IMG/VR virus record: IMGVR_UViG_3300047357_000359
Span: 9,728 to 73,727 of that record
DNA from: a virus
Length of the DNA: 64,000 bases
Reading direction: 5' to 3' (one strand)
Each line of letters starts with the position of its first letter. The stretch's first letter is position 1. Shown one piece after another: positions 4,095 to 51,287 of the stretch. The translations under genes were made by a program, and so were the position numbers. The notes under the pieces were generated by a model. That model was not told where the DNA came from, made no database searches, and worked only from the letters and a program-made list of their open reading frames with translations.

Positions 4095-6197
4095 CTATTG
4101 TTGTGTTTCGTATTGTTGCATGATCATCTCGTCCATGATTTTATCTTGCGCCATATCATACAGTATGCCTGCTGGGTCTAATAGCTGTGGCATGTCCGCA
4201 TAAATCTGTTCGCTTGTATACCAATCTAATGGTAAAGCGTTTTGTTTGTCTAAGTATGCCTTAAAGTTTTCTTGATCTGTTAAACTAGACATTAGTGCTA
4301 TCTTAGTAGCTTCGTTTATAGCACTATAAGTATCTGCCATTGCGGCTAAGATTCTAGTTGCAATCTTTTGTTTAGCCTTATCTACTGCCTCTTTGATGCG
4401 TTTTGCTTTTTGTTCTTTAGACTCAGTTCGTTTGGAAGCATTTCCTTTTTTAGCATCTCCGGATTTTCCTTTATCGTCGGCTTTGGATTCGGTTTTTGCT
4501 TCTTTGGTATCTCCTCCAGCATCAGACTCTCCACTATCTGACCCTTCACTTTCCTCTCCACTTTTATCCACTGACTGTTCCACATCACTACTGGACTCTT
4601 GGTCGGTCTCAGTTGTGTTCTCATCCGTCTCGGTTTCGGTTGATTCGCTTCCCTCACTTGTTTCCTCAGTTGATGTTTCCGTTTCTGCCGTAGTAGACTC
4701 TTCGCTACTTGCTTCACTTGTATTTACTTCTACTTCAGTAGTAGGTTCAGTTGTTTCTGTTGTAGTTGTTTCTACTTCAGCTGGTGCTGTCTCTACTTCT
4801 GCTACTGTAGTCTCTGGCATGTCTAATTCTGGTAGTTCTATTTCAGCTATAGCATCTGCAACAGCAACGTCAACTTGAGCACCAACATCTGCTTCAATTG
4901 ATTCTACACTAGGCATATCAACAGTTGTACTGCCAGAGTCAAAGCTATCAAGACTTGCTACTAGTGTTACTTCTGCTATTTGTTCTACTTGTACAACACC
5001 TGTTTCTAAGTTTGTTGAACTCATTTCTACAGTTGCTACATTGGCTGTTTCGTCTACTTCAACTGTAAATTCTAATTCAACGCCACCGCCATTACTGTCT
5101 ACTATTTCTATTTCAAATGACTCTACTTCTGCGTAGTTAATAGGTTCAATAACAGTATCAGCTACAGGATCGCCTATGTAAACACTTGTGAGTATTGACT
5201 CTTCTGAATTAAAAACTGTTTCTTGATTGCTTAAAATTATGTTTGTGATTGTTTCAGTGACTGACGTAATAGCATCATACGTTAATTTTATATAAGGATC
5301 AGAGAATATTGGTCCAAACATCTGTTGATGGTATCCTGCGTCAACTCCCCATAGATTCATCTTAGCCCAAACTGATTCGTATTGGTTCTGTGGTATTGTA
5401 TAGTTATAAGCGTAGGTTTGTGTTCCTGAATAAGTTAAAGTTTCGCGGTGGGTTAATGAAGCAACTCGAGTTCCGCCTTGTCCGCCAGGTGCTCCTGAGA
5501 ACATGTAAATAGATACTTTAATTAGATCTTTACAGTCTCCACTAGTACTAGAACAAACCGGCACAGTTGCGTTTGATTTGTGTGACTCAACAGTAACACC
5601 ATAATTTACATCAAAGCCTGCTTGTATCTCAGCTTCTGTCAACAGTTGGGTTATCTCAACATACTCAGAGCCAACTTGTCCACCACCTAGTGAATTAGAT
5701 CCATTAGGTTGCCAATTGATATCAGAGCTGGCATTTGAATTTGGAACATTTGCTTGTGGACCCATGCAGGCTTCACCTGTTTGTAATGTTCCACTATAGC
5801 TACAAGTACCACTGCCAACACTAACAGTACCTTGTGTACTCCAACCATTACTTGTGTCGATGGCTCCTAATTGATTAGCTGTGGTTGTTTCTACAGCAGT
5901 TGTAGTTGTAACTGTTTGTTGTTCTGATGTTGATATTTGTTCTATTACAGTTTCAGTGAATAGTGTAGTTGTAGTTGTTTCTTCGAAGCCACCATTTAGA
6001 CCAACTTCAGTGCCTGTAACAACAGATGTTACATCAACAGATGTTACAGTACCACCATTAGGTCCTGTGTCACCTACATTATACTGTTGGTCGTATGCTA
6101 AACTAGAGTAAGAATAACAACATAGCAAGACTACCAAGGCCCACGCCCCAAGTCGTTGCTTTGTTCTTCCATTCTTTTTCGTATGCTTCAAGATCAT
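4095..6197 (-). CDS. large exported acidic Thr/Glu-rich protein
   Basis: 700-aa ORF with signal-like segment, beta-rich N half and low-complexity acidic linker. Confidence 0.7.
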   Translation of the reverse strand: MILKHTKKNGRTKQRLGAWALVVLLCCYSYSSLAYDQQYNVGDTGPNGGTVTSVDVTSVVTGTEVGLNGGFEETTTTTLFTETVIEQISTSEQQTVTTTTAVETTTANQLGAIDTSNGWSTQGTVSVGSGTCSYSGTLQTGEACMGPQANVPNSNASSDINWQPNGSNSLGGGQVGSEYVEITQLLTEAEIQAGFDVNYGVTVESHKSNATVPVCSSTSGDCKDLIKVSIYMFSGAPGGQGGTRVASLTHRETLTYSGTQTYAYNYTIPQNQYESVWAKMNLWGVDAGYHQQMFGPIFSDPYIKLTYDAITSVTETITNIILSNQETVFNSEESILTSVYIGDPVADTVIEPINYAEVESFEIEIVDSNGGGVELEFTVEVDETANVATVEMSSTNLETGVVQVEQIAEVTLVASLDSFDSGSTTVDMPSVESIEADVGAQVDVAVADAIAEIELPELDMPETTVAEVETAPAEVETTTTETTEPTTEVEVNTSEASSEESTTAETETSTEETSEGSESTETETDENTTETDQESSSDVEQSVDKSGEESEGSDSGESDAGGDTKEAKTESKADDKGKSGDAKKGNASKRTESKEQKAKRIKEAVDKAKQKIATRILAAMADTYSAINEATKIALMSSLTDQENFKAYLDKQNALPLDWYTSEQIYADMPQLLDPAGILYDMAQDKIMDEMIMQQYETQQ

Positions 6198-8424: not shown

Positions 8425-9603
8425 ATGATTGACAAAACCCCATTTGAAAACACAGTTGATGATTTGAAAAAGTCAGGTAACTATCGAGTCTTTAACGACA
8501 TCTTACGTGAAAGAGGAGAGTTTCCTAATGCCATCTGGTATGGGAAGTATGCTATAAAAAATATAGTAAACTGGTGTTCAAATGATTACCTAGGAATGGG
8601 TCAGCATAAGGTGGTTCTAGACGCAATGCATACTGCACTTGATCAAACAGGAGCAGGATCAGGCGGGACTAGAAATATTGCGGGTACAAGTCATTATCAC
8701 GTTGCCCTAGAGAACGAACTCGCCCAACTGCATAGCAAAGGAGCGGCTTTACTCTATACATCAGCATATGTAGCAAATGAATGGACTCTAATTGCGTTAA
8801 AACGTATCATTCCCGACATTGTTTTTATTAGTGATAGCAAGAATCACGCTTCCCTCATTCAAGGAATACGAAACAGTGGTGCAGAAAAGAAAATATTTAG
8901 GCACAATGATCTTGAGCATTTAGAAGAACTACTGCGAGACGTCAAAGGCACACCTTGTATTGTCTTTGAGTCCGTGTATAGCATGGATGGATACGTCAGT
9001 GACATACCAGGCATTGTTGCTCTTGCTGAGAAGTACGGTGCTATTACATATCTCGATGAAGTCCACGCCGTTGGCCTGTATGGTGAAACAGGTGCAGGAT
9101 ATTCTGCAGAGCAAGGATCACAGGACAAAATCGATATACTGAATGGCACCTTAGGGAAAGCCTACGGAGTGCAGGGAGGATACATTGCAAGTGATAGTAT
9201 TATCATTGATGCTATTCGCTCTGTTGCTTCGGGGTTTATTTTTACTACTTCAATGAGTCCTGTTATTTGTGCAGGAGCATTAGCTAGTGTAAAATATTTG
9301 AGAGACCATAACGAACTACGAGAACAACACCAGGAACGAGCCAAAAGACTTAAGAAACTTCTTACCAACAGGGACATCCCTATCTTCGAAAATGTGACCC
9401 ACATCGTTCCTATTAAGATCGGAGATGCTAAGAAGTGTAAAGCTATAAGTGACGAACTTATAAATGAGTATGGAATTTACTGTCAAGCAATCAACTATCC
9501 AACAGTTGAAGTAGGTACGGAGCGCCTACGACTTGCGCCGACACCTTTCCATTCGAATGCAATGATGCATCAATTAATTGAAGCTCTACAGAAAGTACTA
9601 TAA
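8425..9603 (+). CDS. hemA: 5-aminolevulinate synthase
   Basis: WCSNDYLGM, GSGGTRNI, FESVYSMDG, DEVHAVGLYG, GTLGKAYG (PLP Lys). Confidence 0.95.
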   Translation: MIDKTPFENTVDDLKKSGNYRVFNDILRERGEFPNAIWYGKYAIKNIVNWCSNDYLGMGQHKVVLDAMHTALDQTGAGSGGTRNIAGTSHYHVALENELAQLHSKGAALLYTSAYVANEWTLIALKRIIPDIVFISDSKNHASLIQGIRNSGAEKKIFRHNDLEHLEELLRDVKGTPCIVFESVYSMDGYVSDIPGIVALAEKYGAITYLDEVHAVGLYGETGAGYSAEQGSQDKIDILNGTLGKAYGVQGGYIASDSIIIDAIRSVASGFIFTTSMSPVICAGALASVKYLRDHNELREQHQERAKRLKKLLTNRDIPIFENVTHIVPIKIGDAKKCKAISDELINEYGIYCQAINYPTVEVGTERLRLAPTPFHSNAMMHQLIEALQKVL

Positions 9604-13571: not shown

Positions 13572-14327
13572 ATGAAACTAATCATTGCAGGGTATGGGTA
13601 TGTTGGTAAGGCATACCATGCTATACTTAAAGAGTCTTGGGACGTTGAAATTCATGACCCGCGGCTTGGGTATGTCGCTGATTTTGATAAAGTTTGCCAA
13701 GGAATCATTTGTTGTGTGTCAACGCCGTCTAACGCAGACGGATCATGTGATGGCAGTAGTGTCATTGACGTTGTTAATCAAGCAAGACAGTTAGATAATA
13801 TTCCTGTGCTTGTTAAAAGTACTATTGATCTTCAAGTCTGGGATCAAATCAAAGAGTTCAACACAACCTTTAGTCCAGAGTTCCTACGTGCTGAAACAGC
13901 CGTAAAGGATCTGTGCAATGCAGAAACACACTATCTTGCTAAAGGCGATACAAACTTTTGGGCAACTATATTAATAGAAGCTCTTGGTAAGATTAACGTG
14001 AATACTAAAAACTCCCCTGAAGAACTTATACTAATAAAGTATCTAAGAAATAGTTTCTTAGCGACTAAGGTAAGTTTCTTCAATCAAGTGTATGACTTAT
14101 GTGAAGCAAGTGGTGTTAACTATACTTCAGTTGCTAATGGTGTAAGTGTAGACAAACGTATTGGTGAAAGCCATACAAGTATAACGACAGAGCGTGGCTT
14201 TGGAGGACATTGTTTTCCTAAAGACACACTAGCTCTAACAAAGTTGGCAGAACAACATGGTGTTGATCTGTCGTTAATTGAATGTGCTATTAAGTACAAT
14301 TACCAAGTAAGGAAGGACAACGTTTGA
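13572..14327 (+). CDS. UDP-glucose/GDP-mannose dehydrogenase family protein (short form)
   Basis: GYGYVG, KST, SPEFLR, K...[22 protein letters not shown]. Confidence 0.85.
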
Positions 14328-15283
14328 AAATGAAAATTATCACAGGAAATGCTAATCCAGATTTAGCACAACAGATTGCAGAACATTGTTTTGCAACACT
14401 AGTACCGGCTAACGTATCGACGTTTGCTGATGGAGAAAGTAGCGTAGAGTTTTTAGAAAATGTACGTGGCGAAGATGTGTTTATTATACAGAGTACCTGT
14501 ACACCTGTTAATGATAGTGTTATGGAACTTATGATTATGATTGATGCGGCACGTAGATCAAGTGCAAGTAGAATTACAGCAGTCATTCCTTACTTTGGTT
14601 ACGCAAGACAAGATCGTAAGAGTGCTTCACGTACTCCTATCACAGCAAAACTTGTTAGTAACTTATTAACAACAGCAGGTGCAGATAGAATCTTAACAAT
14701 GGATTTACATGCAGGACAGATACAAGGCTTCTTTGATATTCCTGTGGACGATTTAACAAGCCGTGTAGTCTTTGCAAAAGATATCAAACGTTCAATTGGT
14801 TGGAGAGATGATCCAGAAGTACAACAACAAGGAACAGTATTTGTATCACCAGACGCAGGTGGTGTTGTTCGTGCTAGGAAGTTTGCTGATATGTTTGGTG
14901 GCGACATTGCTATAGTAGACAAACGTAGACCAGAAGCAGGTAAGAGCGAAGTAATGAATCTAATTGGCGATGTACAAGGCAAACATGCTATCCTAGTAGA
15001 TGACATTGTAGACTCAGGCGGGACATTATGCAATGCGGCCAAAGCAATTATGGATGCAGGTGCTAGTAGTGTTCGTGCTTATATTACACACGGAGTATTA
15101 AGTAACGAAGCATGTCAAAAGGTTGAGAAGTCAGTACTAGATGAATTAGTAGTTACTGATACTATTCCTAATCGTTGTCCTAAGAACTGTAAGAAAACTA
15201 GACAAGTAAGTGTTAGTAACCTATTTGGCGAAGCAATACGCAGAGTTACTAATGAAGAATCAGTAAGTAGTCTGTTTGTATAA
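14324..15283 (+). CDS. prs: ribose-phosphate pyrophosphokinase
   Basis: [44 protein letters not shown]. Confidence 0.95.
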
Positions 15284-17892: not shown

Positions 17893-18687
17893 ATGATACC
17901 AGAACAAGGGATTATGACTATGAACTTCAAGCAAAGAAGTTTATTGTTTGCAAAAATAAGCCAAATTGCTTACTTAAATAAAGCCAATGCTACAAAGCAG
18001 GCTAAAAAAATAGGTTTTACAACTGTAGAGTACTACGATGTAAAAGGAGCTCAATCTTACCGTTTTATGAATAAACGTGATTTAGTTATAGCTTGTAGGG
18101 GAACAGAGCCAACACAATATGCTGATATTAAAGCTGATGCCAATGCATTGCCAGTTATAGCAGAAACAGTTAGTAGAGTACACAAAGGATTCAAAGGGCA
18201 AGTAGACGAGCTATGGCCAGCTATTAGAGAAGACTTAACTCGTACACAAAATAAAAATAAAGATGTGTGGTTTACAGGACACAGTTTAGGAGCGGCAATG
18301 GCAACTATTATGGCTAGTCGTTGTATGTTCTTTGAGCTAGTACCTAACCCAGAAGAACTTTACACATACGGATCACCAAGAGTAGGTTGGAAAGGTTACG
18401 TTGATAGTTTAGGCATTACCCATCATCGTTGGAAGAACAATAACGATATAGTAACAACTGTTCCTCTTGCAATTATGGGTTTCAAACATCACGGAACTAT
18501 GCACTACCTAAACAGTTATGGAAATGTACGTAGACCTACTGGTTGGCAAATGATTAAAGATAGATTACGTGGCATGTGGACAGGAATCAAAAAAGGAAAA
18601 ATAGATAACTTTTCAGATCATTTGATTCATAACTACATTGAACATTTACAAAACTACAAAGACGGAAAAGAAAACCCACAAAAATAA
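17893..18687 (+). CDS. class 3 lipase
   Basis: ACRGT, VHKGF, TGHSLG, YTYGSPRVG, NNDIV..VP. Confidence 0.9.
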   Translation: MIPEQGIMTMNFKQRSLLFAKISQIAYLNKANATKQAKKIGFTTVEYYDVKGAQSYRFMNKRDLVIACRGTEPTQYADIKADANALPVIAETVSRVHKGFKGQVDELWPAIREDLTRTQNKNKDVWFTGHSLGAAMATIMASRCMFFELVPNPEELYTYGSPRVGWKGYVDSLGITHHRWKNNNDIVTTVPLAIMGFKHHGTMHYLNSYGNVRRPTGWQMIKDRLRGMWTGIKKGKIDNFSDHLIHNYIEHLQNYKDGKENPQK

Positions 18688-19110: not shown

Positions 19111-19139
19111 AATATAACATCTGTATTTAGTGTTGTCAA
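19111..19139 (-). promoter_or_regulatory. sigma70-type promoter with embedded TAAATA
   Basis: TTGACA-N17-TATATT on the minus strand. Confidence 0.7.
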
Positions 19140-19516
19140 CCTTTTATTTTAGATTTATAATCTTTTATTGCAGATTTAATTGCATCTTCGGCTAGAACTG
19201 AACAATGTATTTTAACTGGCGGTAATGCAAGTTCTTCTACAATGTCCATATTCTTTACTGCTGATGCTTCGTCTAGTGTCATACCTTTAACCATCTCAGT
19301 TACTAAACTTGAACTTGCTATTGCACTACCGCAACCATAAGTTTTAAATTTAGCATCTGTTATTATACCTTCTTCAACTTCTATCTGTAGACGCATAACA
19401 TCACCACATGCTGGTGCACCTACCATTCCTGTTCCTATATTATCTTTCTTTGGATCAAATGTTCCGACGTTGCGTGGGTTTTCGTAATGGTCAAGTACCT
19501 TTTCAGAGTATGCCAT
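19136..19516 (-). CDS. iscU: Fe-S cluster scaffold IscU
   Basis: MAYSEKVLDHYENPRNVG, GAPACGDVM, FKTYGCGSAIASSS, LPPVKIHCSVLAEDA. Confidence 0.95.
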   Translation of the reverse strand: MAYSEKVLDHYENPRNVGTFDPKKDNIGTGMVGAPACGDVMRLQIEVEEGIITDAKFKTYGCGSAIASSSLVTEMVKGMTLDEASAVKNMDIVEELALPPVKIHCSVLAEDAIKSAIKDYKSKIKG

Positions 19517-19559: not shown

Positions 19560-19659
19560 TGGCTCTGGGGGAAGGACTCGAACCTCCACGATAAATAATT
19601 TGCCGTCATTTACCACACGAGAAACAATCGTGCGTGTCTACCAATTTCACCACCCCAGA
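19560..19659 (-). tRNA. non-canonical class II tRNA with GTT (Asn) anticodon and 9-bp variable arm
   Basis: 7-bp acceptor TCTGGGG/CCCCAGA, G73, CCA; Leu-like D arm; loop TT-GTT-TC; T arm GGAGG-TTCGAGT-CCTTC. Confidence 0.8.
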
Positions 19660-19665
19660 TTATTC

Positions 19666-20496
19666 TTATACTTTGTTAATCTTTTCTAGTGCAGGAATCA
19701 TACGTGTTATACCTATGCCTCCGCCTACTCTTTGAAAGAAGTCAAACTCTAAGAACTTTTCTAGTTCCGCTTCAACTCTTTCCTTACCGAATAGTTTGAA
19801 TAGTAACTCTGAATAAGCACCGTCTGTAATACTATGGAATGTATCACGCATCATATCAACATCACATGAACGTTCTGCTGATCCAATAGTTTCCATACCA
19901 CCTAGTATAACGTCCATCTTCTTTGCAGTATTTCCGTCATCGTTTCTAGCCATGTTCCAGAAAGGTGATGTTAGTTCAGGGAAGTTTGTAATAAGTGTTT
20001 GACCAAACTCTTTTTCCATTGCAAGTTCGTGTTCTGCTTCCATTTCTGTATCAGCACTTAGTCCAAAGTGTTGTTGCCATTCAGCATAAGTCTTTTCTGT
20101 AATGTTGCCAAAGCCTAAGTATTCACATAGTTCATACTCCATTGCTTTTAGATCATCTACATTACCTGGCATTTCAAATTCAAACATTGGAAATATTATA
20201 TCATGTCTGCCTGGTATTGCGTTTGGTTCCTGTCTATAGGAAGTGGAGACACAAAAAAACCCCTTACTATCGGGGCTACTTAATAATTCATGTTCTAACC
20301 ACATCTGGCCTGTTTGCGGCAATGGCCAAACCTGGCCTGCGTAATTGTATGTTGCTACATTGAATGGATCTTCACATGCGGCAAGTATGCTTAGTCTGTT
20401 TTGGGTATGGACTTCTAAAAATCCTTTATCCAAAAAAAATGACCTTAAAAGGCCAACTGTCTTCGTAAATTTATTTGGGGATATCAACTGCGTCAT
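19666..20496 (-). CDS. class IIb aaRS catalytic core (AsnRS/AspRS-like, no anticodon-binding domain; AsnRS2/AS-AR-like)
   Basis: Motif 1 RSFFLDKGFLEVHT, motif 2 YRQE..GRH..F.MFEFE, motif 3 GGGIGITRM; 276 aa. Confidence 0.85.
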   Translation of the reverse strand: MTQLISPNKFTKTVGLLRSFFLDKGFLEVHTQNRLSILAACEDPFNVATYNYAGQVWPLPQTGQMWLEHELLSSPDSKGFFCVSTSYRQEPNAIPGRHDIIFPMFEFEMPGNVDDLKAMEYELCEYLGFGNITEKTYAEWQQHFGLSADTEMEAEHELAMEKEFGQTLITNFPELTSPFWNMARNDDGNTAKKMDVILGGMETIGSAERSCDVDMMRDTFHSITDGAYSELLFKLFGKERVEAELEKFLEFDFFQRVGGGIGITRMIPALEKINKV

Positions 20497-20550
20497 TTTC
20501 TTTTTTTCCTTTTCATTAGTCAAAAAAAATTTGCTCAACAAGTGCCGAGC

Positions 20551-34112: not shown

Positions 34113-36467
34113 ATGACAAACGGCTTGGGAATCCAAATCCAAAAAAGAGATGGGTCAAGTGTACCACTAGACATCAATAAAATTCACTTTGTTGTAGAAG
34201 AAGCGTGTGAAGGACTAGCAGGAGTTAGTAGTAGTCAAATTGAAATGAATGCAAACATTCAATTCTATGACGACATGAGTACAGCAGAGATTCAAGAAAT
34301 CCTAGTTAAAAGTGCAAACGATTTAATTACATTAGAAAATCCTAACTATCAGTTTGTTGCGGCACGTTTATTATTATACCCTATCTACAAAGAGTCATTT
34401 GGCCAATACAATCCTATTCCTTTAATTGATGTAATCAAACGTAACATTGACCGTGGTGTATACGATCCAGCTATCTTAGAAAAGTATACCGAAGACGAAC
34501 TTTCAACATTAAACAAATACATTAAGCATAAACGTGATGAGAACTTTACGTATGCAGGACTTCGTCAAGTAGTTGACAAGTACCTTGTACAAGATAGAAG
34601 CAGTGGTGACATTTATGAATCTCCACAAATGATGTACATGATGATCGCGGCAACATTGTTCGCAGAATATCCAGCACAATCACGTATGCAATATGTAAGG
34701 AGATACTACGATGCGACCTCCCTTTTTAAAATCAATATCCCGACGCCCGTTATGGCCGGCGTCCGCACACCTCTTAGACAATTTGCTTCTTGCGTACTTG
34801 TTGATAGCGATGATACCCTTAATTCCATTTTTAGTTCTGATATGGCTATTGGGCGTTATACCGCACAAAGAGCAGGAATAGGAATTAACGCAGGACGTAT
34901 TAGAGCAGTAAACAGTAAAATTAGAGGTGGTGAAGTAGCACACACAGGTGTTGTCCCATTCCTAAAGAAGTTTGAAGCAACAGTACGTTGTTGTACACAA
35001 AATGGTGTACGTGGTGGTAGTGCAACTACACACTTCCCAATATGGCATTACGAAATTGAAGACATCCTTGTGCTAAAGAATAACAAAGGTACAGAGGATA
35101 ACAGAGTACGTAAGTTAGATTATTCAATTCAGCTTAATAAAACTATGTATGAAAGATTATTATCCGGCGGCGATATAACTTTGTTCTCGCCACATGAAGT
35201 GCCAGACTTATACGAAGCATTTTATTCAGACCAAGATAAGTTTGCAGAGTTGTATGCAAAATATGAACGTAGCAAAACATTACGTACAAAAACTATTTCA
35301 GCAATGGACTTGTTTAGTGCATTAATTAAAGAACGTGCAGAAACAGGACGTATCTATATTATGAATGTTGATCATGCTAATACACACAGTTCATTTAAGG
35401 ACACAGTTTACATGAGTAACTTGTGTCAAGAGATTACATTACCAACTAAGCCACTACAACACATTGACGATCCAGAAGGTGAAATTGCATTGTGTATTCT
35501 TAGTGCTATTAACGTAGGTAAAATTAACAATCTAGATGAACTAGAAGACTTGTGTGATATGGCAGTAAGAGCATTAGATGAAATTATTGACTATCAGAAG
35601 TATCCAATTTTAGCCGCAGAAAAAAGTACTAAAGCAAGACGTAGCTTAGGTGTAGGTTACATTGGACTAGCACATTACCTAGCTAAGAATCAAGTTAAGT
35701 ATAGCGACAAAAAAGCATTAACAAAAGTACACGAGCTAACAGAAGCATTTCAATATTATCTGTTACAAGCGTCAAACAATCTAGCTAAAGAAAAAGGCAA
35801 GTGTGAATATTTTGACCGTACTAAATATAGCGATGGAGTACTACCCATTGACACATATAAAAAGGACTTGGATGACGTATGCAAGATTACACTAAAATAT
35901 GATTGGGAGACTCTTAGATCTTCAATTGTTAAGGACGGACTTAGGCACTCAACGTTGTCCGCACAGATGCCATCGGAAAGCAGTTCCATTGTGTCGAATG
36001 CCACAAACGGTATTGAGCCACCTAGAGGATTCTTGTCCATTAAGAAAAGCAAAAAAGGGCCTCTTAAGCAGATTGTTCCACAGTATCAGTCATTAAAGAA
36101 CTATTACACATTGCTATGGGATATGCCTAGCAACGAAGGCTATATTAACATAGTAGCAGTAATGCAAAAGTTCTTTGATCAAGCAATTTCAGGTAACTGG
36201 AGTTACAACCCAACACACTTTGAAAACAATGAAGTTCCAATGAGTGTAATGCTACAAGATATGTTAACTACATATAAGCTAGGTTGGAAAACTTCATACT
36301 ACCAAAACACCTATGACTTCAAGTCTGATCCTAACGATTTAGAAGATGAACAAGAAGAAGTTAAGTTAGAAAGCCCTATTAACGGCTTTGAACCACAGAT
36401 TGGACGTGCGGAGTTTAACGGCACAGACGATGAGTACGAAGAATATTGCGACAGTTGTGCAATTTAG
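34113..36467 (+). CDS. nrdA: ribonucleotide reductase class Ia alpha subunit
   Basis: ATP cone, PTPVMAG, QFASCVL, SNLCQEI, C-terminal CDSC. Confidence 0.97.
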   Translation: MTNGLGIQIQKRDGSSVPLDINKIHFVVEEACEGLAGVSSSQIEMNANIQFYDDMSTAEIQEILVKSANDLITLENPNYQFVAARLLLYPIYKESFGQYNPIPLIDVIKRNIDRGVYDPAILEKYTEDELSTLNKYIKHKRDENFTYAGLRQVVDKYLVQDRSSGDIYESPQMMYMMIAATLFAEYPAQSRMQYVRRYYDATSLFKINIPTPVMAGVRTPLRQFASCVLVDSDDTLNSIFSSDMAIGRYTAQRAGIGINAGRIRAVNSKIRGGEVAHTGVVPFLKKFEATVRCCTQNGVRGGSATTHFPIWHYEIEDILVLKNNKGTEDNRVRKLDYSIQLNKTMYERLLSGGDITLFSPHEVPDLYEAFYSDQDKFAELYAKYERSKTLRTKTISAMDLFSALIKERAETGRIYIMNVDHANTHSSFKDTVYMSNLCQEITLPTKPLQHIDDPEGEIALCILSAINVGKINNLDELEDLCDMAVRALDEIIDYQKYPILAAEKSTKARRSLGVGYIGLAHYLAKNQVKYSDKKALTKVHELTEAFQYYLLQASNNLAKEKGKCEYFDRTKYSDGVLPIDTYKKDLDDVCKITLKYDWETLRSSIVKDGLRHSTLSAQMPSESSSIVSNATNGIEPPRGFLSIKKSKKGPLKQIVPQYQSLKNYYTLLWDMPSNEGYINIVAVMQKFFDQAISGNWSYNPTHFENNEVPMSVMLQDMLTTYKLGWKTSYYQNTYDFKSDPNDLEDEQEEVKLESPINGFEPQIGRAEFNGTDDEYEEYCDSCAI

Positions 36468-36533
36468 TACTTGACAAATACATAAGACTAGTGTATATTA
36501 ATAAATACGCTATTAGAGAAAAAAGAGAGAGAC

Positions 36534-37637
36534 ATGGCAAAGACAGTATTTAATCGTGAAGCTGTAGACTTCACAAAGCAACATATGTTCTTCGGAGCAG
36601 ATCAAAACACACAGAGATACGATACATTTCGTTTCCCTGTATTTGACAAACTTAACCAAACAATGCTTGGTTACTTTTGGCGTCCTGAGGAAGTATCGTT
36701 ACAAAAAGATAGAGCTGACTTCCAAAACTTTCGTCCAGAAGAAAAACACATTTTTACAAGTAACCTAAAGTATCAAACACTACTAGATAGTGTACAAGGA
36801 AGAGGACCATGTCTTGCTTTCTTGCCTCATGTATCTTTACCAGAACTAGAAGGTTGTATTGTTACTTGGGACTTCTTTGAAACTATTCACTCACGTAGTT
36901 ATACACACATTATGAAGAATGTATATCCTAATCCAAGTGAAGTATTAGATCATATTTTAAATGACGATGAAATTATTAAACGTGCAGTTAGTGTAACTAA
37001 AAACTATGATGCATTTACAGGTGCGGCAGACGCATTCATTCATCGTAAAGAAGGAACCATGCGTGACGTTAAGAAAAAAATGTTCCTTGCTATGATGAAC
37101 GTAAACATCTTAGAAGGATTACGTTTTTATGTTTCGTTTGCATGTACATTTGCATTTGGTGAGCTAAAGAAAATGGAAGGCTCAGCAAAGATTATTAGTC
37201 TTATTGCTCGTGATGAAAGTCAACACCTTGCATTAAGTTCACACGTTCTTAAGAATTGGATGCGTGGCGATGACGATCCAGAGATGGCTAAGATTGCAAA
37301 AGAATGTGAAGCAGAAGTTTATGAAATGTGGAAGGCATGTGTTAACGAAGAAAAAGCATGGGCTAAACATTTAATGAAAGACGGATCAATTATTGGTCTG
37401 AACGAAAGACTGTTAGGCGATTACGTAGAGTACATTGCCAACCGTAGGCTTAAAGCATTAGGATACTCAACTATCTTTGATGCATCATCAACCCAAAACC
37501 CGCTACCGTGGACACAACATTGGCTATCTAGCTCAGGCTTGCAAGTTGCACCTCAAGAGACAGAAGTTGAAAGTTATATCATCGGTGGGATTAAACAAGA
37601 CGTGTCAACAGACAGTCTAAAAGGATTTAAACTATAA
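36534..37637 (+). CDS. nrdB: ribonucleotide reductase class Ia beta subunit
   Basis: FWRPEE, ETIHSRSY, EGLRFY.SF, RDE..H, APQETE. Confidence 0.97.
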   Translation: MAKTVFNREAVDFTKQHMFFGADQNTQRYDTFRFPVFDKLNQTMLGYFWRPEEVSLQKDRADFQNFRPEEKHIFTSNLKYQTLLDSVQGRGPCLAFLPHVSLPELEGCIVTWDFFETIHSRSYTHIMKNVYPNPSEVLDHILNDDEIIKRAVSVTKNYDAFTGAADAFIHRKEGTMRDVKKKMFLAMMNVNILEGLRFYVSFACTFAFGELKKMEGSAKIISLIARDESQHLALSSHVLKNWMRGDDDPEMAKIAKECEAEVYEMWKACVNEEKAWAKHLMKDGSIIGLNERLLGDYVEYIANRRLKALGYSTIFDASSTQNPLPWTQHWLSSSGLQVAPQETEVESYIIGGIKQDVSTDSLKGFKL

Positions 37638-39865: not shown

Positions 39866-40915
39866 ATGGGACAACCAATAGCAAGAATTGGCGACAGGAC
39901 ACAAGGTACTTGTTATCATCCTAGTCATCCACCTTTAGACATTGGTGGTACTATTATAACAGGTAGTCCGAACGTGTTTACTAACAACATTCCTACAGCA
40001 AGACTAGGAGACCTAGTTGAAACTGACTGTGGGCATATAGGTAAAATTATAACAGGATCAACAATAGACATTACTAATGAGTTACTTACAGCAAGGATTG
40101 GTGATGTAATTGATACAGACGCTCCTTACAAGGCAGTTATTGTTACAGGTAGTACAGACGTAGCAGGTGATCCACAAGCAACAGCAGAAGAACAAGCGAA
40201 CGCAATAGGTAACGTAGTTGCACAAGCAATGGGCTTTGAAAAGGTTACACTTGATCCAGTAGAAGCCGCAGACATTATTATTGGTCGTAAGATTGAAAGA
40301 GATAACGGAGTTGATCCAGATACAACAGAAGCAGTAGAATATGGCGATGGTGGTATTCCAACTGCTAGACGTGGTAATGAAAGTCCTGTACTTACAGGTG
40401 GAGAATCCGGAGTAACAAATACAGCAGGACCACAACCGGCTCCAGCAAGTTCATCGTCAGATGGAGAGTTAGTTGAAGAAGTTCCAAGTAAACAACCATC
40501 AAATGCAGATGGACAATTTATTAAATGGTTACCACACGTTGACAGTAGAGTGAAACCACAAGTTGTAACAGGCTTAGAAAGAATATCTAGAGAGATGGGT
40601 TTCCAATTAGTTTGTACTAGTGGATATAGAAGTCCAGAATACAATTCAAGAGTTGGTGGATCTAAGAAAAGTCAACACATGTTAGGAAATGCTGTCGACA
40701 TTGTTCAGACAGGACTAACAACAGCACAACGTCAAAAGTTCATTCAAGCGGCTATTGACGCAGGGTTTACTGCAATTGGCATATACAATACATTTACGCA
40801 CATTGATATTAGAGGTGCAAAAGTGGCTTGGGGTTCCAATGGAAGTAGAACTGGCCTACCAAAATATCCATGGGCACAACAGACCTTAAAAGCTAATGGA
40901 TATGCTACTAGTTAA
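39866..40915 (+). CDS. PAAR spike-tip protein fused to peptidase M15 domain
   Basis: PIARIGD/PTARLGD/TARIGD repeats; TSGYRS..YN..VGG...SQH..G.AVD...FTHID. Confidence 0.85.
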   Translation: MGQPIARIGDRTQGTCYHPSHPPLDIGGTIITGSPNVFTNNIPTARLGDLVETDCGHIGKIITGSTIDITNELLTARIGDVIDTDAPYKAVIVTGSTDVAGDPQATAEEQANAIGNVVAQAMGFEKVTLDPVEAADIIIGRKIERDNGVDPDTTEAVEYGDGGIPTARRGNESPVLTGGESGVTNTAGPQPAPASSSSDGELVEEVPSKQPSNADGQFIKWLPHVDSRVKPQVVTGLERISREMGFQLVCTSGYRSPEYNSRVGGSKKSQHMLGNAVDIVQTGLTTAQRQKFIQAAIDAGFTAIGIYNTFTHIDIRGAKVAWGSNGSRTGLPKYPWAQQTLKANGYATS

Positions 40916-49572: not shown

Positions 49573-50175
49573 ATGAGTTTAAAAGCTGACCTTTGGTTTC
49601 CATCGATTGTATTTGCAGGTTATGTAGAATCAATTGATAGAGATTCATTAAAACAAATTGCTCTTGCATGGCAGGCAAAAGAACCTAACCTTGGTGGCAA
49701 CAGTAATATGAATGGTTGGCATAGTCGCAGTATTGAGAACATTAATTTAGTTGATCCTAACTATGTGTTTGCTCTTAATACGTTTGTAAAAGAACTAGAT
49801 GCACAAGTAGACTACTGTCGCAAAACTATGGGACTACCTGAATTAGAATTCCAAAACTTCTGGATTAACATTAATGGTCCGGGAGCATATCATACATTAC
49901 ACAACCACCAAGATGCTATGTTGAGTGGTGTATTTTATATAGACGTTCCTGCAGAGAATATGGGTGACTTACAATTTTTTAGAGGCGATGATGCACAGTA
50001 TTATATTCCAGATAACTTTGATTCATATAATACAATAACAAGTACAATGGCAACGTATCCTCCAAAAGACGGAATGATAGTAATCTTTCCTAGCTGGGTC
50101 AAACATCAAGTTAAATCAAACCAAAGTGATTTGCAACGGATTGCAGTCTCTTTTAATTACGGAGTTAAAAAGTGA
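49573..50175 (+). CDS. 2OG-Fe(II) oxygenase (TIGR02466-like)
   Basis: WININ, HNH, SGVFY, FPSWVKH.V, RIAVSFN. Confidence 0.85.
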   Translation: MSLKADLWFPSIVFAGYVESIDRDSLKQIALAWQAKEPNLGGNSNMNGWHSRSIENINLVDPNYVFALNTFVKELDAQVDYCRKTMGLPELEFQNFWININGPGAYHTLHNHQDAMLSGVFYIDVPAENMGDLQFFRGDDAQYYIPDNFDSYNTITSTMATYPPKDGMIVIFPSWVKHQVKSNQSDLQRIAVSFNYGVKK

Positions 50176-51287
50176 GAATTGAACAAGACATTAAGTTAGA
50201 CTATAAAGACGTACTGTTTAAACCTAAGAGATCAAAATTAGAAAGCAGACGTGATGTGGATCTAACTCGTACATTTAGATTTCATCACGGTAATGAATGG
50301 ACTGGTGTACCTATCATGTCAAGTAACATGGACGGTGTTGGTACATTTGAAATGGCCAAAGTATTACAAGAACACAAAATGCTTACTATTATGAGAAAGC
50401 ATTACTCCGTTGATGACTGGAAAGAACAGAGTCAAGGTGTTAAGATGAAGTACCTAAGTGTTTGCACAGGTACAGGAGTTATTTGGGATAAAGATGCAAA
50501 AGACTATGCTACTATGAAAGCAGTCTTAGAAATGTATCCAGACATTAAATTTATTACAGTTGATGTTGCAAATGCTTATCATGAAAACTATGCAGACTTT
50601 ATTGCACGTTTACGTGATGCATATCCAGACAAAACTATTATTGCTGGTAATGTTATTTCAGCAGAGATGACAGAAGAACTTATTATTAAAGGTGCTGACA
50701 TTGTTAAGTGTGGTATTGGTCCAGGATCAGTATGTACTACACGACTAATGACAGGTGTTGGTGTGCCACAACTATCAGGCATTATTGAATGTGCTGATGC
50801 GGCCAACGGTATTGGTGGACACATTATTGCTGATGGCGGTTGTGTGTATCCAGGAGATGTAAGTAAAGCCTTTGGAGCAGGTGCTCACTTTGTTATGCTT
50901 GGCGGTATGTTAGCAGGACACAAAGAAGGTGGCGGTAACATTATTACAAAACATACTGCAACAGGTGGTGCTCACAAGTTAGACAACGGAACTTATGTTC
51001 CACGTTTTGAAGAACAAAACTTTGTTGAGTTCTACGGTATGAGTTCAGATGCGGCAATGGCAACACATGGTACACGTAAAGATGGATACAGAGGTGCTGA
51101 AGGCAAACTTGTTTCTATTCCTTACAAAGGAGAAGTAGAAGGTACACTAACAGAGATACTTGGTGGACTAAGATCTACTTGTACTTACATTGGTGCTAAA
51201 CGTATTAAGGACATGCCAAAGTGTACTACATTCGTAAGATGTACACAACAGGTAAATCAAGTGTTCAATCAGTTTAATGCAAGTTAA
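50172..51287 (+). CDS. guaC: GMP reductase
   Basis: KLDYKDVL.KPKRS.L.SR, NMDGVGTF, GIGPGSVCTTR, FYGMSS. Confidence 0.95.
   Translation: MRIEQDIKLDYKDVLFKPKRSKLESRRDVDLTRTFRFHHGNEWTGVPIMSSNMDGVGTFEMAKVLQEHKMLTIMRKHYSVDDWKEQSQGVKMKYLSVCTGTGVIWDKDAKDYATMKAVLEMYPDIKFITVDVANAYHENYADFIARLRDAYPDKTIIAGNVISAEMTEELIIKGADIVKCGIGPGSVCTTRLMTGVGVPQLSGIIECADAANGIGGHIIADGGCVYPGDVSKAFGAGAHFVMLGGMLAGHKEGGGNIITKHTATGGAHKLDNGTYVPRFEEQNFVEFYGMSSDAAMATHGTRKDGYRGAEGKLVSIPYKGEVEGTLTEILGGLRSTCTYIGAKRIKDMPKCTTFVRCTQQVNQVFNQFNAS

What the first reader, a model, noticed from the sequence alone, without database searches (positions are those of the whole stretch)
19560..20496. Minimal AsnRS-like enzyme paired with a non-canonical long-variable-arm tRNA(GTT): candidate phage orthogonal aaRS/tRNA system
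Seen: the class IIb synthetase core (motifs 1-3, no N-terminal OB anticodon-binding domain) stops 6 nt before a 100-nt tRNA gene on the same strand. The tRNA has a perfect 7-bp acceptor stem, G73, encoded CCA and a Leu-like D arm (GTG-AAATTGGTAGA-CAC). Its variable stem is 9 bp (GGTAAATGA/TTATTTATC), and its anticodon loop is TT-GTT-TC with pyrimidines at 37/38. Known: bacterial tRNA-Asn has a short variable loop and A37. Long V-arms belong to Ser/Leu/Tyr/Sec tRNAs, and SerRS in particular ignores the anticodon. Truncated AsnRS paralogs (AsnRS2/AS-AR) are described as tRNA-independent asparagine synthetases. Many alphaproteobacteria make Asn-tRNA indirectly via GatCAB. Inference: the enzyme may charge this tRNA through the V-arm/acceptor, giving a host-independent or anticodon-nuclease-resistant Asn route. 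Alternatively, host SerRS may charge it (allo-tRNA-like Asn-to-Ser recoding), or it may be a non-ribosomal amino-acid carrier or decoy.
Basis: partly seen in the sequence, partly recalled or inferred. Interest (0 to 1): 0.9.

Follow-up and report, generated by a model that had tools for sequence, protein, structure and literature searches.

The report
Phage synthetase-like enzyme with captive tRNA
A very abundant ocean phage carries a stripped-down asparagine-tRNA-synthetase look-alike always followed by an oddly built asparagine tRNA, but the enzyme's relatives in bacteria and giant viruses belong to pyrimidine synthesis and replace its first three enzymes, so the pair is probably a new metabolic module and not simply a private tRNA-charging system.

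Summary
On the minus strand, a 276-aa stand-alone class IIb synthetase core (19666-20496) stops 6 nt before a 100-nt tRNA (19560-19659). The tRNA has anticodon GUU, U37, U1-A72, G73, an encoded CCA and a 9-bp variable arm.

The pair is conserved in about 260 phage loci, including P-SSM2, P-SSM5 and P-SSM7. Stems covary strongly and GUU never changes. The tRNA was not found without the enzyme in 110 of 110 testable loci.

The reading "mini-AsnRS charges it through the V arm" is only partly supported. The enzyme family also occurs without this tRNA in Bacteroidota, Alphaproteobacteria, Myxococcota, Chlamydiota, CPR, DPANN, huge phages and giant viruses. There it coexists with a normal AsnRS (30 of 48 genomes). 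It is fused or adjacent to PyrD or PyrF at least 12 times. It marks genomes that have PyrD, PyrE and PyrF but lack CarB, PyrB and PyrC (PyrB 0/10 against 48/60 relatives, p = 1.6e-6).

The phage clade shows no enzyme change that accompanies the tRNA.

Best reading (inferred): a carbamoyl-phosphate-independent dihydroorotate-forming enzyme, with the tRNA as an Asn-carrying partner.

This scan found the same pair before on other DNA, and two earlier follow-ups also saw the pyrimidine link. No paper on it was found.

The parts
19666..20496 (-). Gene for a 276-aa stand-alone class IIb synthetase-like core (called X here), from ATG at 20496 to stop TAA at 19666-19668. An in-frame TTG at 20541 would add 15 residues, but homologues start at the ATG.
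   Evidence: Pfam PF00152 core only. PHROG 29758, function unknown. AF2 pLDDT 96.8. Nearest folds are AsnRS and AspRS cores. Residues shared with AsnRS are kept: E42, Q64, E68, R88, E90, R97-H98, E106, D195, E202, R209, R265.
19660..19665 (-). 6-nt spacer between the stop codon and tRNA nucleotide 1.
   Evidence: In related loci the spacer is usually about 5-20 nt. L069 has the tRNA about 130 nt downstream.
19560..19659 (-). 100-nt type-II (long variable arm) tRNA with anticodon GUU. It has U1-A72, G73 (19563), an encoded CCA (19560-19562), a 3-bp D stem and a Leu-like 11-nt D loop.
   Evidence: Rfam RF00005 44.7 bits. Fold. Covariation over 46 homologues. Model R1 finds it after the gene in 75 of 80 loci of the P-SSM7-like clade; the other five contigs were not examined and some end at or just after the gene.
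19623..19625 (-). Anticodon G34 U35 U36 inside the loop UUGUUUC (U37, C38).
   Evidence: alignment. G34-U35-U36 is invariant in about 98 distinct homologous tRNAs, while positions 32, 33, 37 and 38 vary.
19590..19614 (-). Variable arm: a 9-bp stem GGUAAAUGA/UUAUUUAUC capped by CGGCAAA.
   Evidence: In homologues the variable region is always long, about 13-29 nt. In the window clade it is often capped by GAAA or GCAA, and its base pairs covary.

Best explanation
The gene encodes a phage member of an uncharacterised family of stand-alone class IIb synthetase cores, called X here.

Shown by comparative evidence: in bacteria and giant viruses X works in de novo pyrimidine synthesis. It stands in for the carbamoyl-phosphate-dependent front half of the pathway (CarAB, PyrB, PyrC) and feeds PyrD.

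Inferred reaction: X binds asparagine, or an aspartate derivative, in its AsnRS-like pocket. It uses ATP, giving AMP and PPi, to close the substrate into dihydroorotate. The atom balance fits: Asn + CO2 - H2O = dihydroorotate.

Shown: one clade of X, in T4-like marine myophages, acquired a dedicated tRNA(GUU) once and has been inherited with it ever since. X itself did not change.

Inferred role of the tRNA: it is a partner that carries the amino-acid moiety, not a decoding tRNA that X recognises through its V arm. It keeps every determinant that host enzymes use to build Asn on tRNA: G34-U35-U36 and G73 for ND-AspRS or AsnRS, and U1-A72 for GatCAB. The most likely working is that the host loads and amidates it and X draws Asn from it. 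This would give the phage a pyrimidine precursor route even in hosts with no free-Asn synthesis. The long V arm and U37 would then serve to keep it off other machinery.
For: Pair is real and obligate for the tRNA:
- The tRNA lies directly downstream in 74 of 80 window-clade loci and in 75 of 80 P-SSM7-clade loci.
- The same holds in the isolates P-SSM2, P-SSM5 and P-SSM7, in different genome neighbourhoods.
- A search that started from the tRNA found X upstream in 110 of 110 testable loci.
- Stems covary and GUU, U1-A72 and G73 are invariant.
- U1-A72 is the GatCAB determinant (PMC9976931).

X is not the housekeeping AsnRS:
- A full-length AsnRS is present in 30 of 48 X-bearing genomes.
- X scores far below the asnS cut-off.

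Pyrimidine link:
- There are three independent kinds of fusion: DHODH-1A-X in at least 8 protein clusters, X-DHODH-2, and X-PyrF.
- PyrD or PyrF lies next to X in at least 12 bacterial loci, from Bacteroidota, Pseudomonadota (mostly Alphaproteobacteria), Myxococcota and one unclassified bacterium.
- In 28 X-bearing genomes, PyrE is in 28, PyrF in 26 and PyrD in 22. PyrB is over cut-off in only 2, CarB is in 7, and dimer-type PyrC is in none. Multi-type PyrC is over cut-off in 3 of the 48 genomes searched.
- Within one family, X-bearing genomes have PyrB 0/10 and CarB 0/10. X-free relatives have 48/60 and 55/60 (p = 1.6e-6 and 7.6e-9).
- A giant-virus bin with X also encodes PyrB.
- A window-clade phage contig has a DHODH-like ORF and phosphoribosyltransferases 9 kb from X.
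- The window phage encodes PRPP synthetase.

Same enzyme in phage and cells:
- About 95 positions are conserved family-wide.
- Only 5 positions are phage-clade-specific, and none is basic.
- The tRNA-bearing phage X sequences form one clade with SH-aLRT support of 99.
Against: - No biochemistry exists for any member, so the reaction and substrate are inferred.
- X keeps the AsnRS residues that position the alpha-carboxylate for adenylation. That geometry leads to an Asn ester, not to dihydroorotate, unless the substrate binds flipped as in AsnA/AS-AR.
- The five Chlamydiota carriers have PyrE and PyrF but no PyrD, so the dihydroorotate model does not cover every clade.
- Small genomes with AsnRS but no AsnB fit a plain asparagine-synthetase role.
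- The window's 73.7-kb record has no PyrD. P-SSM2 and P-SSM7 have none either.
- Cellular X needs no special tRNA, so a tRNA-borne substrate is not intrinsic to the enzyme.
- Hosts of the window phage are unknown. I could not verify that the hosts lack free-Asn synthesis.
- The long V arm and U37 have no tested explanation.
Confidence: 0.4

Rival explanations
1. Private translation pair. X is a minimal, anticodon-blind AsnRS that charges the adjacent tRNA with Asn, or with Asp for later amidation. The tRNA then decodes AAC/AAU independently of the host Asn system.
For: - Co-inheritance is obligate and the tRNA is never seen without X.
- The class II motifs and the AsnRS-type pocket residues are intact.
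- A long V arm faces the side from which class II enzymes approach, so it could exclude host AsnRS or AspRS (established knowledge, not tested here).
- An RNA-library contig spans the gene and the tRNA.
- A bacterial X (L264) has a canonical tRNA-Asn 240 nt downstream.
Against: - X predates the tRNA and did not change when the tRNA arrived: 5 clade-specific residues, none basic, and a net charge of about -20.
- Orthologues at 50-58% identity sit in pyrimidine operons and fusions, in genomes that already have an AsnRS.
- X has no anticodon-binding or other RNA-binding domain.
- V-arm length and sequence vary from 13 to 29 nt, which argues against specific arm recognition.
Confidence: 0.2
2. X is a tRNA-independent asparagine synthetase of the AsnA/AS-AR kind (Asp + NH3 + ATP gives Asn). 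The tRNA is an ordinary host-charged supplementary tRNA-Asn. The two travel together because both raise Asn supply for an AT-rich, Asn-rich phage proteome.
For: - All characterised truncated class IIb cores of this size are such enzymes (PMC9437257).
- About a dozen small genomes (Chlamydiota, CPR, DPANN) have AsnRS and X but no AsnB.
- The tRNA keeps all host Asn identity elements.
Against: - X is not a member of the AsnA/AS-AR models: 19.5 bits against a cut-off of 389, and 3p8t reaches only E = 6e-7.
- 21 of 48 carriers also have AsnB-type genes.
- An asparagine synthetase does not explain the PyrD and PyrF fusions or the loss of CarB, PyrB and PyrC.
- It does not explain the long V arm or U37, or why the tRNA never occurs without X.
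Confidence: 0.15
3. The tRNA serves a non-decoding or defensive role unrelated to X catalysis. It could be a decoy or a nuclease-resistant replacement for host tRNA-Asn, or it could be charged by host SerRS for Asn-to-Ser recoding. It could instead act as a 3' processing and stabilising element of the X mRNA.
For: - It has a type-II body with G73, and U37 removes the t6A site.
- It lies 6 nt after the stop codon on the same strand.
- Huge phages also carry long-arm versions of tRNA-Pro and tRNA-Arg, which suggests a general phage use of arm insertions.
Against: - GUU, U1-A72 and G73 are invariant under heavy covariation. That points to selection by the Asn machinery, not to a structural or decoy role.
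- Proteome-wide Asn-to-Ser recoding would be costly.
- None of these roles explains the exclusive linkage to X.
Confidence: 0.1

Closest known systems
Canonical asparaginyl-tRNA synthetase, class IIb (PDB 1x54, 9sh8, 2xti/2xgt, 8tc7)
   Same: - The catalytic-core fold is the same (Foldseek E = 2.7e-17, TM 0.79).
- Motifs 2 and 3 are present, and the AsnRS-type pocket signature is present: QTGQMWLE aligns with QSSQLYLE, and FEFE aligns with VEAE.
- E42, Q64, E68, R88, E106, R209 and R265 are shared.
   Different: - X has no N-terminal OB anticodon-binding domain.
- It scores 35 bits against the cut-off of 343.
- A very long branch separates the family from AsnRS.
- It coexists with a true AsnRS in 30 of 48 carrier genomes.
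- It sits in a pyrimidine-gene context.
Asparagine synthetase A and archaeal AS-AR (AsnRS2; PDB 3p8t, 1nnh)
   Same: Both are stand-alone class IIb cores of about 290 aa without a tRNA-binding domain. They set the precedent that such cores become ATP-dependent amide-forming metabolic enzymes (PMC9437257).
   Different: - The relationship is only distant (profile E = 6e-7; NCBIfam 19.5 bits against 389).
- AsnA and AS-AR have no tRNA partner.
- They have no PyrD or PyrF fusions.
- They show no anticorrelation with CarB, PyrB and PyrC.
tRNA-dependent asparagine synthesis (ND-AspRS plus GatCAB acting on tRNA-Asn)
   Same: The phage tRNA keeps G34-U35-U36, G73 and the U1-A72 pair that GatCAB requires. 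The idea of a tRNA acting as the scaffold on which Asn is made is established.
   Different: The tRNA has a Leu-like type-II body and mostly U37. It is encoded next to a metabolic synthetase paralogue. No transamidosome component is encoded nearby.
Natural idiosyncratic synthetase/tRNA pairs (PylRS lacking the N domain with tRNAPyl; ProRSx with tRNAProX)
   Same: The enzyme and an unusual tRNA are co-encoded, and the enzyme's architecture cannot read the anticodon.
   Different: Here the enzyme family exists widely without the tRNA and shows no adaptation to it. Charging has not been demonstrated.
Classical early pyrimidine pathway (CarAB, PyrB, PyrC)
   Same: It has the same inferred place in metabolism, supplying dihydroorotate to PyrD.
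   Different: The fold is unrelated (class II synthetase core). The presumed chemistry is adenylate-forming and needs no carbamoyl phosphate.

Membership tests
Asparaginyl-tRNA synthetase (asnS, TIGR00457) | Class II catalytic core with motifs 1-3. | tested here: met
   PF00152 E = 1.9e-16. Foldseek top hits are AsnRS. Motif residues are conserved.
Asparaginyl-tRNA synthetase (asnS, TIGR00457) | N-terminal OB-fold anticodon-binding domain. | tested here: not met
   The protein is 276 aa and only the core matches. Longer relatives carry PyrD, PyrF or homing-endonuclease domains and never an OB fold.
Asparaginyl-tRNA synthetase (asnS, TIGR00457) | Reaches the curated equivalog score. | tested here: not met
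   34.8 bits against a cut-off of 342.6.
Asparaginyl-tRNA synthetase (asnS, TIGR00457) | Is the enzyme that supplies Asn-tRNA in its genome. | tested here: not met
   30 of 48 cellular carriers have a separate full-length AsnRS over the cut-off.
Asparaginyl-tRNA synthetase (asnS, TIGR00457) | Aminoacylates tRNA-Asn. | not testable with these tools
   This needs an in vitro charging assay.
Asparagine synthetase A / AS-AR | Membership of the AsnA or AS-AR sequence models. | tested here: not met
   NF005055 scores 19.5 bits against 389. PDB 3p8t reaches E = 6e-7, behind 22 AsnRS and AspRS entries.
Asparagine synthetase A / AS-AR | Occurs where AsnRS is present but no other asparagine synthetase. 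| tested here: inconclusive
   About a dozen small genomes fit, but 21 of 48 carriers have AsnB-type genes.
Bacterial tRNA-Asn | Anticodon GUU, discriminator G73, U1-A72. | tested here: met
   Invariant in about 98 distinct homologues.
Bacterial tRNA-Asn | Short variable loop and A37 (the t6A site). | tested here: not met
   The variable region carries a 25-nt insertion and position 37 is U. Across the family, about 87 have U37, 9 have A37 and 2 have C37.
Type-II tRNAs (Leu, Ser, Tyr, Sec) | Long variable arm with a stem, and a 3-bp D stem. | tested here: met
Type-II tRNAs (Leu, Ser, Tyr, Sec) | Anticodon of Leu, Ser, Tyr or Sec. | tested here: not met
   GUU is invariant.
Co-evolved orthogonal synthetase/tRNA pair | The enzyme lineage shows changes specific to its tRNA partner. 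| tested here: not met
   There are only 5 phage-clade-specific conserved residues, none basic, and about 95 positions are shared with tRNA-less relatives.
New pyrimidine-pathway family (X) | Fused or adjacent to PyrD or PyrF. | tested here: met
   Met for relatives. Not met in the window's own 73.7-kb record.
New pyrimidine-pathway family (X) | Presence goes with absence of CarB, PyrB and PyrC while PyrD, PyrE and PyrF are kept. | tested here: met
   The exception is the Chlamydiota clade, which lacks PyrD.
New pyrimidine-pathway family (X) | Makes dihydroorotate. | not testable with these tools
   This needs an enzyme assay or complementation.

The most novel reading that the evidence does not exclude
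A tRNA-dependent, carbamoyl-phosphate-independent entry into pyrimidine synthesis. Host ND-AspRS and GatCAB (or AsnRS) build Asn on the phage's captive long-arm tRNA(GUU). The synthetase-derived enzyme X takes that Asn and, using ATP and CO2 or bicarbonate, closes it into dihydroorotate. An aminoacyl-tRNA would then be a nucleotide-precursor donor, and X would replace CarAB, PyrB and PyrC.
Probability: 0.2. Interest if true: 0.95.

Novelty: categorically new. Interest (0 to 1): 0.82.

Why it matters
If the comparative signal holds, a class II synthetase core has been recruited to replace the three textbook first steps of pyrimidine synthesis. This would apply in several bacterial phyla, in giant viruses and in some of the most abundant phages of the ocean. 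The family has at least 8,000 protein clusters at 90% identity and more than 590 IMG/VR loci. That would be a new pathway.

The phage version adds something with no precedent: a metabolic synthetase paralogue that is inherited with its own tRNA. The finding gives concrete bench tests that use two cultured cyanophages, P-SSM2 and P-SSM7, and their Prochlorococcus hosts.

If the rival is right instead, this is a natural minimal synthetase/tRNA pair of direct interest for genetic-code engineering.

Either way, the gene is mis-annotated in public records as "tRNA ligase".

Tried and rejected
Tools and searches that gave nothing:
- Alignment-based locus searches failed for lack of a conserved stretch.
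- Single distant representatives P0162 and P0229 have no IMG/VR relatives.

Readings rejected:
- ARAGORN's Glu-CTC call for the window tRNA. It needs a stem made only of G-U pairs, whereas Rfam and the fold give GUU.
- X as a replacement for PyrE. PyrE is present in 28 of 28 carriers.
- X as the housekeeping AsnRS.

Checks that were uninformative:
- I looked for a long-arm tRNA-Asn in the huge phages LR756501 and LR756508 and in giant-virus loci and found none near X. Only canonical tRNA-Asn genes occur elsewhere, plus long-arm tRNA-Pro and tRNA-Arg.
- L374, the one tRNA-pattern locus without X, holds only a tRNA-like 5' fragment inside a tRNA cluster.
- RNA-library contigs cover the gene and the tRNA. 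Contigs cannot show transcript ends, strand or processing, and DNA carry-over cannot be excluded. Parts without cover mean nothing.
- The ESM Atlas look-up only returned the family's own viral clusters.
- Literature searches found no study of the family or of the tRNA.
- I could not obtain a Prochlorococcus or SAR11 genome handle, so I could not test whether hosts lack AsnRS or asparagine synthetase.

Full report
**1. What is in the window**

On the minus strand an ORF runs from the ATG at 20496 to the TAA at 19666-19668. It encodes 276 aa. Six bases later a 100-nt tRNA gene begins (19659-19560).

The protein matches only the catalytic core of class II D/K/N synthetases. Pfam PF00152 gives E = 1.9e-16 over profile positions 27-293 of 308. 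The protein folds with pLDDT 96.8. Its closest solved folds are AsnRS (1x54, 9sh8), followed by archaeal/eukaryal AspRS.

The tRNA scores 44.7 bits on Rfam's tRNA model. Its features are:
- acceptor stem UCUGGGG/CCCCAGA, with U1-A72;
- G73 and an encoded CCA;
- a 3-bp D stem with a Leu-like 11-nt loop;
- anticodon loop UUGUUUC, which gives GUU with U37 and C38;
- a 25-nt insertion in the variable region that forms a 9-bp arm.

ARAGORN's "Glu-CTC" call is a mis-fold.

**2. The pair is conserved and under selection**

The three cultured Prochlorococcus myophages P-SSM7, P-SSM2 and P-SSM5 encode a 64-67% identical protein annotated "tRNA ligase". In each, an 85-89-nt tRNA-Asn(GTT) with a long arm follows about 10 nt later, although the three genome neighbourhoods differ. 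Sullivan et al. 2010 list the gene only as sporadic cluster T4-GC194 (PMC3037559).

In IMG/VR the tRNA sits directly downstream of the gene in three sets of loci:
- 74 of 80 loci closest to the window;
- 75 of 80 loci closest to P-SSM7. The other five contigs were not examined, and some end at or just after the gene.
- A reverse search that started from a tRNA sequence pattern returned 114 loci. X lies directly upstream in 110, three are cut by contig ends, and one holds only a tRNA-like fragment.

On 46 distinct tRNAs, 99.9% of cells pair and 17 of 23 pairs show compensatory changes. None of 500 shuffles reaches this.

Across about 98 distinct sequences, G34-U35-U36, U1-A72 and G73 never change. 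Other features vary:
- Position 37 is U in about 87, A in 9 and C in 2.
- Position 33 is C in 8.
- The variable region ranges from about 13 to 29 nt.
- CCA is encoded in one clade and not in the other.

This is a working RNA with Asn identity, not a decaying Leu or Ser tRNA.

**3. The enzyme is not simply a small AsnRS**

It scores 35 bits on the asnS model (cut-off 343) and 19.5 bits on the archaeal asparagine-synthetase-A model (cut-off 389). A family profile hits eukaryal AsnRS best (E = 1.5e-15) and AS-AR only at 6e-7.

The AsnRS-type pocket signature is kept. QTGQMWLE aligns with QSSQLYLE, where AspRS has Lys in place of the Leu. FEFE aligns with VEAE. The motif 2 and motif 3 arginines are also kept.

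**4. The family is far wider than the phages, and elsewhere it has no captive tRNA**

The family has 688 clusters at 50% identity. It was found in these groups:
- huge phages, at 46-49% identity, with no long-arm tRNA-Asn within 1.5 kb;
- giant-virus bins;
- 76 prokaryotic genome loci from Bacteroidota, Alphaproteobacteria, Myxococcota, Chlamydiota, Dependentiae, CPR and DPANN.

Among the 76 prokaryotic loci, two that ARAGORN calls tRNA-Asn (L192, L224) and a third with a 100-nt tRNA that it calls Asp-ATC (L194) carry a long tRNA at 63-82% identity. All three fall in the phage clade of the tree and are probably mis-binned phage contigs. One bacterial locus (L264) has a canonical tRNA-Asn 240 nt downstream.

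A quick maximum-likelihood tree shows the family as monophyletic and far from true AsnRS. All tRNA-bearing phage sequences form one clade with SH-aLRT support of 99. The tRNA was therefore probably acquired once.

**5. The family belongs to pyrimidine synthesis**

*Fusions.* Longer relatives are fusions with pyrimidine enzymes:
- class 1A DHODH-X, in at least eight protein clusters and on up to seven contigs;
- X-class 2 DHODH (P0283, and also locus L248);
- X-PyrF (P0138).

*Operons.* In bacterial genomes PyrD or PyrF lies beside X in at least 12 loci. These come from Bacteroidota, Pseudomonadota (mostly Alphaproteobacteria), Myxococcota and one unclassified bacterium, and include X-PyrF-PyrD operons.

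*Which step.* Presence of pathway genes in X-bearing genomes:

| Gene | Genomes with it |
|---|---|
| PyrE | 28 of 28 |
| PyrF | 26 of 28 |
| PyrD | 22 of 28 |
| PyrB (over cut-off) | 2 of 28 |
| CarB | 7 of 28 |
| PyrC, dimer type | 0 of 28 |
| PyrC, multi type (over cut-off) | 3 of 48 |

All 14 control genomes have PyrB and CarB.

*Anticorrelation within one family.* I compared genomes in the GTDB family of a Moheibacter MAG. The ten X-bearing genomes are the ones that share the PEPCK-X-GldC gene order; I did not verify that each belongs to that GTDB family.

| | X-bearing genomes | 60 sampled relatives, none with X |
|---|---|---|
| PyrB | 0 of 10 | 48 of 60 (p = 1.6e-6) |
| CarB | 0 of 10 | 55 of 60 (p = 7.6e-9) |

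*Not the housekeeping AsnRS.* A full-length AsnRS is present in 30 of 48 carriers, so X does not fill that role.

*Phage and virus context.* A giant-virus bin with X encodes a true PyrB. A window-clade phage contig carries a DHODH-like ORF and phosphoribosyltransferases 9 kb from X. The window phage itself encodes PRPP synthetase, an aminotransferase, an IMPDH/GMP-reductase-family protein and ribonucleotide reductase.

**6. What the enzyme probably does (inference)**

X marks genomes that keep the late pyrimidine steps but lack carbamoyl-phosphate synthetase, ATCase and dihydroorotase. It is often fused to PyrD. The simplest reading is that X supplies dihydroorotate by another, ATP-driven route.

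The atom balance Asn + CO2 - H2O = dihydroorotate, together with the AsnRS-like pocket, suggests Asn plus bicarbonate as substrates. An AsnA-like flipped binding of an aspartate derivative is an alternative. Neither has been shown.

Caveats:
- The five Chlamydiota carriers lack PyrD.
- Small AsnRS-positive, AsnB-negative genomes fit a plain asparagine-synthetase role.
- The retained AsnRS residues would normally activate the alpha-carboxylate.

**7. What the tRNA probably does (inference)**

About 95 positions are conserved across all X. Only five are specific to the phage clade (T2, L4, M119, W140, I169), and none is basic. Phage X carries a net charge of about -20. X therefore did not adapt to the tRNA, and recognition of the variable arm by X is unlikely.

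The tRNA never occurs without X, while X does occur without the tRNA. So the tRNA depends on X. It keeps exactly the determinants that host enzymes read: the anticodon and G73 for ND-AspRS or AsnRS, and U1-A72 for GatCAB (PMC9976931).

My preferred model is that the host builds Asn on this tRNA and X uses it. This would make sense in hosts that make Asn only on tRNA. I could not check the hosts: the window phage's NrdA is equally close to cyano- and pelagimyophages.

The rival that X charges the tRNA for translation stays open at about 0.2.

**8. Expression**

Marine metatranscriptome libraries from several studies hold the stretch. One 1169-nt contig covers 19361-20529, which is X, the tRNA and the start of iscU, with two differences. 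This is compatible with co-transcription but does not prove it.

**9. Novelty**

No paper on the family or the tRNA was found.

The scan's own notes show that the same pair was reported before on other DNA. Two earlier follow-ups also noted the pyrimidine link. I read these notes only after reaching the same point independently.

Noticed in passing
L086:4792-4881 (-), i.e. G000:C1:4795-4881, upstream of the window: A second type-II tRNA lies in the same phage record. It is 87-90 nt with anticodon loop UUACUAA, which gives ACU (Ser with A34). A34 is unusual for a Ser tRNA.
   Followed up: no
L081:2425-2622 (-): In one related phage contig that lacks the tRNA, a manA RNA motif (RF01745, 58 bits) lies about 100-300 nt downstream of the X gene, on the opposite strand.
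   Followed up: no
L093:2295-2391 and L178:39-136 (huge phage LR756508): tRNA-Arg(UCG) and tRNA-Pro(UGG) each carry an insertion of about 26 nt in the variable arm. Long arms on non-Leu/Ser/Tyr tRNAs may be a wider phage habit.
   Followed up: partly
L264:3021-3093: In a bacterial MAG at 44% identity, a canonical 73-nt tRNA-Asn(GTT) lies 240 nt downstream of X on the same strand. That genome has AsnB but no AsnRS was found.
   Followed up: partly
window 14324-15283, 8425-9603, 50172-51287: The window phage encodes PRPP synthetase, a class I/II aminotransferase and an IMPDH/GMP-reductase-family protein. Together with RNR (34113-37637) this is a rich nucleotide-precursor gene set.
   Followed up: partly
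window 39866-40915: A single ORF combines a PAAR motif with an M15 peptidase domain.
   Followed up: no
window 19136-19516 and 17893-18687: An IscU/NifU-like gene lies directly after the tRNA, and a class 3 lipase-like ORF (the earlier scan note's call; not scanned here) lies nearby. P-SSM2 and P-SSM5 also have a lipase next to the X-tRNA unit.
   Followed up: no
L190:5438-6343 (-) (giant-virus bin G006): A giant-virus bin that carries X also encodes a bona fide aspartate carbamoyltransferase (TIGR00670, 289 bits).
   Followed up: partly
G009, G020 and other Weeksellaceae-like genomes, e.g. G020:C9:41313-42590: In the X-bearing Bacteroidota, PyrE and PyrF lie in one open frame of about 456 aa, which is a UMPS-like fusion.
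   Followed up: no
AY939844.2 (P-SSM2), L002:3313-3400 versus the annotated 5325-5410: The GenBank record of P-SSM2 places its tRNA-Asn feature about 2 kb away from where the tRNA actually lies, which is directly after the "tRNA ligase" gene.
   Followed up: yes
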